From Naegleria gruberi (taxonomy: Eukaryota), in the NCBI GenBank assembly GCA_000004985.1, contig GG739567.1: 1,090 nucleotides of DNA, one strand, 5' to 3'. Made by a program: the position numbers and the translations under genes. This document shows positions 1 to 1,090 of this stretch, piece after piece. A model generated the notes under the pieces. The model made no database searches, had not been told where the DNA came from, and worked only from the letters and a program-made list of their open reading frames with translations. Every line of letters starts with the position of its first letter. Positions within the stretch are counted from its first letter, which is position 1.

Positions 1-48
1 TAAATCATACTGATCATTATATGCATATGTGGTACAGTACTTGGATGC
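1..48 (-). other. Tyr-rich segment distal to the last recognisable blade (aa 348-363, SKYCTTYAYNDQYDL). It may be a linker or the start of the next domain; the reading frame continues past the window edge.
   Basis: This segment follows the degenerate unit ending NYYILKA. It lacks the Gly-rich loop and the N-x-R-I-R-K-V signature. The frame stays open to position 1. Confidence 0.35.
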
Positions 49-1090
49 TTTCAAAATATAATAGTTATCATTTGTAAAATACAAATCTCCATTTGATGCA
101 ATTGCCAAAGACTGTGGTAGACCTGTTGATACAATTTTTGCATCACCATTGGTTGTAAATATCCCAACCCCAACTACTGTTACATCAGATAATGAACCAT
201 CAAGACCAATTTTACGAATTTTTCTGCAAATTTGGTCTGTATAAAACAATTCCCCTTTTTGGTTAAAAACAATACTAAGCGGTTCCATATTGGCTGTTCT
301 AGCCACTGTTTGAATACTCAAGCAACTGCGTACCCCAGTACCTCCCACAACTATCACATTGTTATACACTTTACGAATTCTATAACTGTCATCAGAAAAA
401 TAAAGTGTTCCATTAAATATTGTTACAAAAAGTGGTTTACCAATATTGGTAGATAATGGTTCCAATTCTCCGTTATATGTGGAACTTCCTGTACCAACCA
501 CTGTTGAAATATAACCATTGGTATCAACCTTTCTAATTCTATAATTATCAGTATCAGTAAAATAAATATCACCTGAATCTGCACAATAAACACTTCGAGG
601 ATTATTCAATAGAACAGTATTTGAGGTTGATAATTGTCCATCACCACCATATCCAGCTGTACCTGTACCTGCTAGTGTTGTAATAATACCACTTGATGAA
701 ACTTTCCTTAAACGATTGTTATTCGTTTCAGCAATAATTAGCTCATTATATTTAGTATAGCAAAAACCATAAGGATTAATAAGTTTGGCACTTGTAGCAG
801 GTCCACCATCACCACTAGAAACATAATTCAAATTTAAAGAACCAGCAATGGTGGAAACAATACCATTTACAGCAACCTTTCTAATTCTATGATTATAGAC
901 ATCCGCAATAACTAATTCTCCCAAAGAATTGAAAGCAATGTGTTGTAGATAATCAAATTTTGCCACTGTAACATTTTCATTATCACCACAAAATGCTTGA
1001 CTCATCGTACCAGCATAAGTATTCAAATAACCATTCGAATCTAATCTACGAATTCTAGGAATATCATTTTCGGTAAAGAACAACTCACCA
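1..1090 (-). CDS. Internal fragment (partial at both ends) of a large NHL-repeat beta-propeller protein. The frame has codon ends at + position 1 and codon starts at + position 1089, and is open for all 363 codons.
   Basis: I reverse-complemented the window and translated it codon by codon. The translation is GELFFTENDIPRIRRLDSNGYLNTYAGTMSQAFCGDNENVTVAKFDYLQHIAFNSLGELVIADVYNHRIRKVAVNGIVSTIAGSLNLNYVSSGDGGPATSAKLINPYGFCYTKYNELIIAETNNNRLRKVSSSGIITTLAGTGTAGYGGDGQLSTSNTVLLNNPRSVYCADSGDIYFTDTDNYRIRKVDTNGYISTVVGTGSSTYNGELEPLSTNIGKPLFVTIFNGTLYFSDDSYRIRKVYNNVIVVGGTGVRSCLSIQTVARTANMEPLSIVFNQKGELFYTDQICRKIRKIGLDGSLSDVTVVGVGIFTTNGDAKIVSTGLPQSLAIASNGDLYFTNDNYYILKASKYCTTYAYNDQYDL. There is no in-frame stop in 363 codons of roughly 33% GC DNA; random sequence of this composition would show a stop roughly every 15-20 codons. 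The repeated NHL signature (Gly-rich loop + Y-x-[AT]-D-x-x-N-x-R-I-R-K-V) gives the product call. The internal Met codons (M29 = + 1003-1005, M268 = + 286-288) sit inside blades and are not plausible starts. Confidence 0.88.
49..1089 (-). repeat. Protein-level tandem array of NHL/beta-propeller blades. In + coordinates: partial blade 1042-1089, B1 874-1041 (56 aa), B2 700-873 (58 aa), B3 526-699 (58 aa), B4 367-525 (53 aa), B5 208-366 (53 aa), B6 49-207 (53 aa, degenerate).
   Basis: Each unit ends in the strand-motif: PRIRRL (aa 11-16), ELVIADVYNHRIRKV (58-72), ELIIAETNNNRLRKV (116-130), DIYFTDTDNYRIRKV (174-188), TLYFSDDSYRIRKV (228-241), ELFYTDQICRKIRKI (280-294), DLYFTNDNYYILKA (335-347). 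Motif-to-motif spacing is 56, 58, 58, 53, 53, 53 aa, which is 168/174/174/159/159/159 nt. Each unit begins with x-x-N/D-G-x-[IL]-[ST]-T-[IVL]-[AV]-G-x-G and carries a Gly-rich loop. Nucleotide identity between units is low apart from the conserved-motif codons. This is ancient blade repetition, not a DNA satellite. Confidence 0.8.

What the first reader, a model, noticed from the sequence alone, without database searches (positions are those of the whole stretch)
1..1090. Window-spanning minus-strand gene missing from the supplied ORF track
The track lists only a 74-aa plus-strand ORF, but the minus strand carries an unbroken 363-codon frame across the whole window with strong protein-repeat structure. 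It was missed because it has no start or stop inside the window. The gene is therefore longer than 1.09 kb, and its two ends, with any fused domains, signal peptide or operon partners, lie in the flanks. Annotation from closed ORFs alone would mis-call this region as a tiny hypothetical protein on the wrong strand.
Basis: seen in the sequence. Interest (0 to 1): 0.5.

Follow-up and report, generated by a model that had tools for sequence, protein, structure and literature searches.

The report
Naegleria NHL-repeat surface protein gene fragment
The window is a complete 1,090-bp orphan scaffold of the amoeba Naegleria gruberi whose minus strand encodes an internal piece of an NHL-repeat beta-propeller protein; GenBank already holds a partial model of it, so this is an ordinary gene that a closed-ORF track cannot show.

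Summary
The minus strand is open for all 363 codons (chance about 7e-14) and the other five frames carry 18-48 stops. The product passes the Pfam NHL and teneurin-NHL cut-offs. It has seven RIRKV-type motifs 53-58 residues apart and folds confidently (pLDDT 87, pTM 0.87) into an NHL-type propeller.

It is 100% identical to GenBank XP_002667957.1, "predicted protein, partial [Naegleria gruberi]", whose contig is exactly 1,090 bp. The gene is therefore already annotated on window 334..1038(-), and that record has no flanks to extend into. The open frame does run past the deposited model, by 17 codons upstream and 111 downstream.

The best full-length matches are large N. gruberi proteins on 236-508 kb scaffolds. 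In them an N-terminal NHL array precedes EGF repeats, a membrane helix and a kinase; or a GPS motif, a multi-pass membrane region and RGS; or a plain membrane anchor. A Naegleria-specific end-of-array motif (window LKASKYCT) occurs in none of 282 other relatives, which places the window at the C-terminal end of such an array.

I read it as a non-catalytic extracellular binding propeller. Contamination is unlikely. Interest is low.

The parts
1..1089 (-). Open reading frame of 363 codons with no start and no stop: an internal fragment of an NHL-repeat protein gene. Residue 1 is window 1087-1089 and residue 363 is window 1-3.
   Evidence: 0 stops against 18-48 in the other frames. P about 7e-14 and GC3 17.6%. 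Pfam NHL and TEN_NHL above cut-off. AF2 pLDDT 87.3, pTM 0.87.
334..1038 (-). The part already deposited as GenBank XP_002667957.1 / EFC35213.1, 'predicted protein, partial [Naegleria gruberi]', 235 aa (residues 18-252 of the frame).
   Evidence: 100% identity and contig length 1090. The translation of 334..1038(-) equals P0001 exactly.
1..333 (-). An in-frame coding extension of 111 codons beyond the 3' end of the deposited model (residues 253-363). It holds the rest of repeat 5, repeat 6 and the start of repeat 7.
   Evidence: Open on its own (P about 1e-4). GC3 is 0.225. Codon-usage log-likelihood is best in this frame: -3.79 against -4.54 and -4.63. pLDDT block means are 84-94 for residues 251-300 and 83-87 for 321-340. 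It aligns to blades of P0175 and P0216.
1039..1089 (-). An in-frame coding extension of 17 codons beyond the 5' end of the deposited model (GELFFTENDIPRIRRLD): the B and C strands of a blade that the scaffold end cuts.
   Evidence: It contains the first RIRRL motif. Strands 3-7 and 12-16 are in the model with pLDDT 86.
922..1089 (-). NHL repeat period 1 (residues 1-56). The scaffold end cuts it at its N-terminal side.
   Evidence: Motif at residue 12. Translation verified.
748..921 (-). NHL repeat period 2 (residues 57-114). It carries the canonical SGDGGPATSAKL loop.
   Evidence: The best Pfam NHL stretch is residues 49-71.
574..747 (-). NHL repeat period 3 (residues 115-172).
412..573 (-). 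NHL repeat period 4 (residues 173-226).
259..411 (-). NHL repeat period 5 (residues 227-277). It is degenerate, with no GDGG loop.
   Evidence: The model has four strands here, 219-249.
91..258 (-). NHL repeat period 6 (residues 278-333). It is degenerate, and the loop at residues 301-320 is modelled with low confidence.
1..90 (-). The start of repeat period 7 (residues 334-363): the last blade, then the exit from the array.
   Evidence: pLDDT falls to 46 and then 31 in the last two blocks, residues 351-363.
31..54 (-). End-of-array junction motif LKASKYCT (residues 346-353). It corresponds to RKLIPWCS, RKVSLTCS and RKLTPYCN at the end of the NHL arrays of the N. gruberi paralogs.
   Evidence: The pattern [RL]K[LVIA]xx[WYTF]C[STN] occurs once in the window and once in each Naegleria paralog, always at the end of the array. 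It occurs in 0 of 282 other relatives, which hold 2,706 RIRKV-type motifs. Coordinates verified.
232..456 (+). The 74-aa TTG-start ORF of the supplied track. It is a chance antisense ORF, not a gene.
   Evidence: Its only Pfam match is below cut-off, 15.4 bits against 27. Its length equals the mean longest open stretch in shuffles, 72 aa. It lies antisense to confidently folded NHL blades.

Best explanation
The window is an entire 1,090-bp unplaced scaffold of the Naegleria gruberi NEG-M genome assembly. Its minus strand is an internal fragment of a native nuclear gene for a large NHL-repeat protein. The fragment holds three strands of one blade followed by six complete four-stranded blades, enough for one NHL-type beta-propeller.

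By analogy with its closest relatives in the same genome, this propeller is the last part of a long N-terminal extracellular NHL array. In those relatives the array follows a signal peptide and precedes a stalk or EGF region and a membrane segment. The inferred role is a non-catalytic, ligand- or surface-binding ectodomain of a cell-surface receptor or adhesion protein.

Shown: the coding frame, the NHL family and fold, identity to the Naegleria record, the paralog architectures, and the shared end-of-array motif.

Inferred: the extracellular location, the binding role, and what lies in the missing 5' part (more blades, a signal peptide) and 3' part (stalk or EGF region, a membrane helix, perhaps a kinase or a 7TM-RGS module).
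For: - Coding frame: 0 of 363 stops, P about 7e-14, GC3 17.6%.
- Family: PF01436 scores 53.9 against a cut-off of 20, and PF25021 scores 72.8 against 27.1. The best solved-structure hits are bacterial teneurin-like 9ifo/9pt5 (E 4e-55), SOQ1, NHLRC2 and TRIM71.
- Fold: AF2 pLDDT 87.3, pTM 0.87, with a regular four-strand periodicity. Foldseek gives 9ifo E 5e-25 with TMq 0.70, and 7djl and 6g7w with TMq 0.68-0.70.
- Source: 100% identity to XP_002667957.1 on a 1,090-bp contig. Window GC is 33.3% and the published N. gruberi genome figure is 33% (PMC6892926 Table 2). The nearest bacterial and metagenome relatives have 42-67% GC in the matching DNA.
- Native family: 3 of the 10 highest-identity representatives out of 1.84 billion are N. 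gruberi proteins on 236-508 kb scaffolds. P0216 and its cluster-mate P0277 give the best single-alignment scores of all 280 proteins held.
- Lineage markers: the junction motif is unique to the window and the Naegleria paralogs. The GY[IL][SN]T signature is enriched in P0175 (14 copies) and P0216 (2), is absent from P0227, and occurs in only 4 of 282 other relatives.
- Extracellular inference: in P0175 and P0227 the array follows a signal peptide and precedes the TM segments. In P0216 it precedes a C-terminal TM anchor.
- Non-catalytic inference: Vgb_lyase scores 27.8 against a cut-off of 50, there is no SGL hit at E <= 1, and the fragment has only two His and no Trp.
Against: - Identity to the Naegleria paralogs is 39% over the full length. 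That is not much higher than to the best bacterial relatives (35-45%), so the paralogy rests on rank, composition and short lineage-specific motifs.
- I wrote the junction pattern after seeing the four sequences.
- No second copy, ortholog or transcript-derived protein above 50% identity exists in 5.8 billion proteins.
- An isolated 1-kb scaffold is what low-coverage foreign DNA would also look like.
- ContScout reports bacterial-type contaminants in this assembly.
- No N-terminus, signal peptide or membrane segment is visible in the window, so location and function are by analogy only.
- Ring closure of the model could not be inspected because the coordinates are not exposed.
Confidence: 0.8

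Rival explanations
1. The scaffold is foreign DNA, from a bacterium or another contaminant, that entered the Naegleria assembly. The NHL protein would then belong to an unsampled low-GC prokaryote.
For: - Most of the 78,297 related representatives are bacterial or from metagenomes.
- The scaffold is an isolated 1,090 bp.
- ContScout counts 60-135 bacterial-type proteins in this assembly's annotation.
- No other assembly in the collection holds the gene.
Against: - No donor was found. The best identity is 34% in GTDB species genomes and 45% in JGI metagenomes, and IMG/VR has nothing.
- The relatives' DNA is 42-67% GC, against 33.3% here and 33% for N. gruberi.
- The best single-alignment matches are N. 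gruberi proteins on large scaffolds.
- The end-of-array motif and the GY[IL][SN]T signature are shared with Naegleria paralogs and are absent or rare in 282 other relatives.
Confidence: 0.07
2. It is a dead gene fragment: a pseudogene or a decaying duplicate of a Naegleria NHL-array gene that is no longer expressed.
For: - Repeats 5 and 6 have lost the canonical GDGG loop.
- The last 30 codons have flat composition, with GC1 = GC2 = GC3 = 0.267, and low pLDDT.
- It is an orphan scaffold with no close paralog.
Against: - There is no stop or frameshift in 363 codons at 33% GC (P about 7e-14).
- Codon bias is maintained in the extension, and codon-usage likelihood is best in frame.
- The intact paralog P0175 also has degenerate blades, at residues about 350-500.
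Confidence: 0.1
3. The propeller is an enzyme: a lactonase of the SMP-30/YvrE type, a streptogramin-lyase-like enzyme, or a PAL-like lyase, not a binding module.
For: JGI labels many homologs 'sugar lactone lactonase YvrE'. There are sub-threshold Vgb_lyase matches and structural matches to Vgb lyase, 2qc5 and 2z2o.
Against: - Vgb_lyase scores 27.8 bits against a cut-off of 50, and there is no SGL (PF08450) hit at E <= 1.
- Identity in the structural alignment to Vgb lyase is only 14-17%.
- The fragment has only two His, one of them in the structural NHRIRKV motif, and no Trp. From my own knowledge, the PAL zinc site needs three His.
- The Naegleria paralogs carry the array as a receptor ectodomain.
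Confidence: 0.03
4. The plus-strand 74-aa ORF (232..456) is the real gene, and the minus-strand frame is fortuitous.
For: It is the only closed ORF of 60 aa or more.
Against: - Its length equals the chance expectation.
- It has a TTG start and no family hit above cut-off.
- The opposite strand has overwhelming coding, family and fold evidence.
Confidence: 0.01

Closest known systems
Naegleria gruberi NHL-array surface proteins: XP_002670673.1 (P0216, 1,074 aa), XP_002673894.1 (P0175, 2,807 aa) and XP_002677176.1 (P0227, 2,103 aa). All are deposited as 'predicted protein'.
   Same: The organism is the same. The repeat period is about 56 aa with the same RIRKV core. Identity is 39% over the whole fragment for P0216 and P0175. 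All share the end-of-array motif ...K-x-x-x-[WYT]-C-[STN]. P0175 and P0216 also share the GY[IL][SN]T signature, which P0227 lacks.
   Different: It is a diverged paralog, not an allele of any of them. Three of its blades are more degenerate. Its signal peptide, stalk, membrane segment and any cytoplasmic module are unseen, because the scaffold ends.
Bacterial teneurin-like protein (PDB 9ifo / 9pt5) and the very large family of bacterial NHL-repeat proteins with the GDGGPAT loop.
   Same: It is the best solved-structure match by sequence (E 4e-55) and by fold (E 5e-25, TMq 0.70, 34% identity). The blade consensus is the same.
   Different: The hosts are bacterial and GC-rich. The Naegleria junction motif is absent. 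The window shows no YD-shell or toxin context.
Animal teneurins (Pfam TEN_NHL PF25021).
   Same: The NHL domain model scores above its cut-off, 72.8 bits. Paralog P0175 also carries teneurin-type EGF repeats.
   Different: Identity to teneurin structures is only 17-22%. A type II membrane topology, a YD shell and a Tox-GHH domain are not seen in the window, and Pfam does not find them in the paralogs. The window matches the NHL-domain model, but the protein is not a teneurin.
NHLRC2 / SOQ1 (thioredoxin-like domain plus NHL propeller) and the TRIM-NHL proteins (TRIM71, Thin, Brat-type).
   Same: They share the six-bladed NHL propeller fold. TMq is 0.65-0.70 for SOQ1 and NHLRC2 and 0.52-0.54 for TRIM71 and Thin. 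Sequence E-values are 1e-16 to 1e-11.
   Different: Identity is 16-23%. Their defining partner domains (Trx-like; RING, B-box, coiled coil) would lie outside the window, and the Naegleria paralogs lack them.
Naegleria 7TM-RGS receptors with GPS motifs (described for N. fowleri, PMC9283941).
   Same: Paralog P0227 has the GPS, multi-pass membrane region and RGS arrangement of this class. The window could be the ectodomain of such a receptor.
   Different: That paper lists EGF and lectin ectodomains, not NHL. The window itself shows no GPS, TM or RGS.

Membership tests
NHL repeat (Pfam PF01436; six-bladed beta-propeller clan) | Profile score above the curated gathering threshold | tested here: met
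   53.9 bits against a cut-off of 20, in 3 stretches.
NHL repeat (Pfam PF01436; six-bladed beta-propeller clan) | Tandem repeats of about 40-60 residues, five or six or more copies | tested here: met
   Seven motif copies spaced 53-58 residues apart.
NHL repeat (Pfam PF01436; six-bladed beta-propeller clan) | Four-stranded antiparallel blades arranged as a propeller | tested here: met
   The AF2 model (pLDDT 87.3, pTM 0.87) has six four-strand units plus a partial one. Foldseek probability is 1.00 to solved NHL propellers, with TMq up to 0.70. Ring closure was not inspected because the coordinates are not exposed.
Naegleria NHL-array surface protein family (P0175, P0216, P0227) | Closest full-length similarity is to family members, not to other NHL proteins | tested here: met
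   P0277 and P0216 rank 1-2 and P0175 ranks 5 of 280 by best-HSP score. Three of the ten highest-identity representatives are N. gruberi proteins. The margin over bacterial proteins is small.
Naegleria NHL-array surface protein family (P0175, P0216, P0227) | End-of-array junction motif [RL]K[LVIA]xx[WYTF]C[STN] | tested here: met
   Window residues 346-353, LKASKYCT. The motif occurs once in each paralog at the end of the array and in 0 of 282 other relatives. The pattern was defined post hoc.
Naegleria NHL-array surface protein family (P0175, P0216, P0227) | Signal peptide upstream and a membrane segment downstream of the array | not testable with these tools
   Both would lie beyond the ends of the 1,090-bp scaffold, and no longer contig is on record.
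Teneurin (animal type II transmembrane proteins) | NHL domain matching TEN_NHL PF25021 | tested here: met
   72.8 bits against a cut-off of 27.1.
Teneurin (animal type II transmembrane proteins) | EGF repeats, YD/RHS shell, and Tox-GHH C-terminal domain on one polypeptide | tested here: not met
   The window holds none of them. Paralog P0175 has teneurin-type EGF repeats, but no YD/RHS or toxin domain appears among its Pfam hits. The unseen parts of this gene cannot be tested.
Virginiamycin B lyase family (PF24684) and SMP-30/gluconolactonase (PF08450) | Profile score above the curated threshold | tested here: not met
   Vgb_lyase scores 27.8 bits against a cut-off of 50. PF08450 is not reported at E <= 1. 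NCBIfam Vgb(A) scores 17.1 against 600.
NHLRC2 / SOQ1 | Thioredoxin-like domain N-terminal to the NHL propeller | not testable with these tools
   The N-terminal part is missing. Similarity to their NHL domains is distant: E 1e-13 to 1e-16 and 18-23% identity.
TRIM-NHL | RING, B-box and coiled-coil domains N-terminal to a single NHL propeller | not testable with these tools
   The N-terminal part is missing. The cut first blade and the multi-propeller paralogs argue for an array, not a single C-terminal propeller.

The most novel reading that the evidence does not exclude
The fragment is the membrane-proximal propeller of a not-yet-described family of Naegleria cell-surface receptors. In that family, long teneurin-like NHL or NHL+EGF ectodomains are wired to a kinase or to a GPS-7TM-RGS module. 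The missing 3' part of this gene would then carry such a signalling module. This would put teneurin-type ectodomain building blocks, and adhesion-GPCR-like sensing, in a heterolobosean far from animals.
Probability: 0.35. Interest if true: 0.4.

Novelty: already known. Interest (0 to 1): 0.15.

Why it matters
For the scan, this is a useful negative. A closed-ORF, bacterial-code track applied to a short eukaryotic scaffold reports a spurious 74-aa antisense ORF and hides the real gene. The gene itself is an ordinary member of one of the largest repeat families and already has a GenBank accession.

There are two modest gains:
- The deposited partial model can be lengthened by 128 codons, from 235 to 363 aa.
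- The orphan fragment can be assigned to a Naegleria family of NHL-array surface proteins, at the C-terminal end of the array.

The paralog architectures noticed on the way are of mild evolutionary interest: NHL plus teneurin-type EGF plus kinase, and NHL plus GPS plus multi-pass membrane region plus RGS. They lie outside this window.

Tried and rejected
- An exact 55-base match in IMG/VR viral contigs gave none.
- The look-up of encoding contigs for the deposited protein P0001 and for paralog P0216 both returned 'not on record'. So no flanks and no Naegleria DNA for a codon-usage comparison could be obtained.
- A search with the diverged C-terminal half only (residues 205-363) was meant to pull out orthologs or paralogs. 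It returned only the protein's own record.
- The exhaustive representative search ranked giant multi-repeat proteins first by score. It became useful only after the highest-identity entries were looked up by name.
- Close-relative scans of GTDB genomes, JGI metagenomes and IMG/VR found nothing above 45% identity, so no contamination donor was found.
- The ContScout supplements held as text do not list this accession.
- Tandem Repeats Finder, Rfam and tRNA scans gave nothing real: one 15-base hexamer run, a sub-threshold snR50 hit at E 0.5, and no tRNA.
- Literature searches for Naegleria with 'NHL repeat' or 'NHL' returned no relevant paper.
- An in-frame retained intron in the low-confidence loop (residues 301-320) was considered and rejected. 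The motif spacing there is 54 residues, the same as in the other repeats.
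Full report
**1. The observation**

Six-frame translation shows that the minus-strand frame window:1-1089:- has no stop in 363 codons. The other five frames have 18-48 stops each. The window is 33% GC, which gives a per-codon stop probability of 0.080, so the chance of 363 open codons is about 7e-14. In 2,000 shuffles the longest open stretch averaged 72 codons and never exceeded 166. GC is 41% at the first two codon positions and 17.6% at the third.

The mechanical ORF list holds only one ORF of 60 aa or more, the 74-aa TTG-start ORF at 232..456 (+). 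By its own description that tool omits ORFs that run off an end.

**2. What the frame encodes**

Pfam gives TEN_NHL (PF25021) at 72.8 bits against a cut-off of 27.1, and NHL (PF01436) at 53.9 bits against 20, in three stretches. Vgb_lyase falls below its cut-off, at 27.8 against 50. NCBIfam has nothing near a cut-off.

The best matches among solved structures are a bacterial teneurin-like protein (9ifo/9pt5, E 4e-55), then SOQ1, NHLRC2, TRIM71 and the animal teneurins.

The motif x-R-I-R-K-V lies at residues 12, 68, 126, 184, 237, 290 and 344, with spacings of 56, 58, 58, 53, 53 and 54. No repeat is detectable at the DNA level, and the 28-aa repeat cores are about 33% identical to one another. 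The repeats are therefore old.

An AlphaFold2 model built on 40 aligned homologs has mean pLDDT 87.3 and pTM 0.87. It shows three strands of a cut blade followed by six four-stranded blades. Foldseek matches it to solved NHL propellers with probability 1.00: 9ifo at E 5e-25 and TMq 0.70, with SOQ1 7djl and NHLRC2 6g7w at TMq 0.68-0.70.

**3. Where the window comes from**

The top database hit is 100% identical: P0001, which is XP_002667957.1 / EFC35213.1, 'predicted protein, partial [Naegleria gruberi]'. It is 235 aa long and is seen on a single contig of 1,090 bp. Its sequence equals the translation of window 334..1038(-) exactly. This has three consequences:
- The window is a whole orphan scaffold of a eukaryotic genome.
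- A partial gene model on this strand is already public.
- That record offers no flanks to extend into.

The open frame runs past the deposited model by 17 codons at the 5' side and 111 at the 3' side. For the 3' extension:
- It is open on its own (P about 1e-4).
- It keeps a low GC3 (0.225).
- It fits the core's codon usage best in frame.
- It folds confidently over residues 253-300 and 321-340.
- It aligns with blades of the paralogs.

The extension is therefore coding. The deposited model ends just before GTACGC, which may have been taken for a splice donor. The regular repeat spacing argues against any intron inside the window.

**4. Native gene or contaminant**

This needed testing for three reasons. 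The scaffold is tiny. Most relatives are bacterial. ContScout reports 60-135 bacterial-type proteins in this assembly, although it does not list this accession in the text held.

Evidence against contamination:
- Scans for close relatives found at most 34% identity in GTDB species genomes and 45% in JGI metagenomes, and nothing in IMG/VR.
- The relatives' matching DNA is 42-67% GC. The window is 33.3%, and the published N. gruberi genome figure is 33% (PMC6892926 Table 2).
- Among the ten highest-identity representatives out of 1.84 billion, three are N. gruberi proteins on scaffolds of 236-508 kb, including the single best at 49%.
- By best single alignment, P0216 and its cluster-mate P0277 rank first among all 280 proteins held, and P0175 ranks fifth.
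- The motif that ends the NHL array in each Naegleria paralog (RKLIPWCS, RKVSLTCS, RKLTPYCN) has a counterpart at window residues 346-353 (LKASKYCT). It occurs in none of 282 other relatives, which hold 2,706 RIRKV-type motifs.
- The signature GY[IL][SN]T occurs twice in the window, 14 times in P0175 and twice in P0216. P0227 has none, and only 4 of 282 other proteins carry it.

Caveats: the junction pattern was written after seeing the sequences, and full-length identity to the paralogs is only 39%. I put contamination at about 7%.

**5. How it most likely works**

The three Naegleria relatives show what such arrays are attached to:
- P0175: signal peptide, about 18 blades, a Cys-rich block of teneurin-type EGF repeats, one membrane helix, then a protein kinase.
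- P0227: signal peptide, NHL array, a GPS motif, six hydrophobic TM-like segments (consistent with a seven-helix region), then an RGS domain.
- P0216: NHL array and a C-terminal membrane anchor.

In all three the array lies on the extracellular side. 7TM-RGS proteins with GPS motifs and complex ectodomains have been described in N. fowleri as likely sensors of extracellular cues. That paper mentions EGF repeats and lectin domains but not NHL (PMC9283941).

By analogy, the window encodes the last propeller of an extracellular NHL array, and the junction motif marks the exit from the array. More blades and a signal peptide should lie upstream of window position 1090. A stalk and a membrane segment should lie downstream of position 1.

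A catalytic role is unlikely. The lyase and lactonase profiles are below cut-off or absent, and the fragment has two His and no Trp. The binding role and the location are inferences, not shown.

**6. Comparison with known families**

The fragment meets the NHL repeat criteria: profile score, repeat number and fold.

It matches the teneurin NHL profile but is not a teneurin. The other defining domains are absent from the window. Apart from the EGF repeats of P0175, they are also absent from the paralogs.

Membership of the NHLRC2/SOQ1 or TRIM-NHL families cannot be tested, because their defining partner domains would lie outside the scaffold. Similarity to them is distant in any case.

**7. The plus-strand ORF**

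The 74-aa ORF at 232..456 has a TTG start, and its only family match is below cut-off (15.4 bits against 27). Its length is what shuffled sequence yields. It lies antisense to confidently folded blades. It is a chance ORF.

**8. Verdict**

Three parts of its framing need correcting:
- It framed the window as a bacterial gene with operon partners, but the source is a eukaryote.
- The gene is missing only from the closed-ORF track, not from public annotation.
- The flanks it proposed to retrieve do not exist in this record.

The gene is an ordinary member of a very large family (78,297 representative relatives at E <= 0.001) and already has an accession.

The small additions made here are the 128-codon extension of the model, the assignment to a Naegleria family of NHL-array surface proteins, and the placement at the array's C-terminal end. 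Interest is low.

Noticed in passing
Outside the window: N. gruberi protein P0175 (XP_002673894.1, NAEGRDRAFT_70916, 2,807 aa; scaffold of 508,457 bp): The architecture is a signal peptide, about 18 NHL blades, teneurin-type EGF repeats (PF25024 at 124.9 bits, PF23106, PF07974), one membrane helix (2550-2568) and a C-terminal protein kinase (2622-2788). No YD/RHS shell was found. This is a teneurin-like NHL+EGF ectodomain on a receptor kinase in a heterolobosean.
   Followed up: partly
Outside the window: N. gruberi protein P0227 (XP_002677176.1, NAEGRDRAFT_67572, 2,103 aa): It has an NHL array, a GPS motif (1542-1581), six hydrophobic TM-like segments (1609-1917) and an RGS domain (1952-2081). 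It belongs to the 7TM-RGS class described for N. fowleri (PMC9283941). That paper lists EGF and lectin ectodomains but not NHL.
   Followed up: partly
window 331..336 (-) and 1036..1041 (-): The deposited partial model XP_002667957.1 ends at residue 252, directly before GTACGC, and starts at residue 18. The frame, the repeats and the confident fold continue on both sides. The model boundaries therefore look like prediction artefacts, not exon ends.
   Followed up: yes
whole window (assembly GCA_000004985): ContScout (PMC10831095) lists the N. gruberi annotation as contaminated, with 135 bacterial-type proteins in one supplementary table and a total of 60 in another. This accession is not named in the text held.
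   Followed up: yes
window 1..477 (-), residues 205-363: The diverged C-terminal half has no relative sharing exact words in 5.8 billion proteins, apart from its own record. Yet an unnamed ENA protein (P0277) sits in the same >=90%-identity cluster as paralog P0216. This gene copy has therefore been seen only once in public data.
   Followed up: partly
window 1..90 (-), residues 334-363: The last 30 codons have flat composition (GC1 = GC2 = GC3 = 0.267). Model confidence falls over the last two 10-residue blocks, to means of 46 and 31 (residues 351-363). This is consistent with leaving the propeller for a linker, but it was not resolved.
   Followed up: no
window 768..853 (+): There is a sub-threshold Rfam match to snoRNA snR50: 23.7 bits against a gathering score of 45, E 0.5. 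It lies antisense to the coding frame and I judge it a chance match.
   Followed up: no
window 657..671: A 2.5-copy CTGTAC hexamer run is the only tandem repeat found. On the coding strand it encodes part of the GTGTAG loop of repeat 3, and it is trivial.
   Followed up: no
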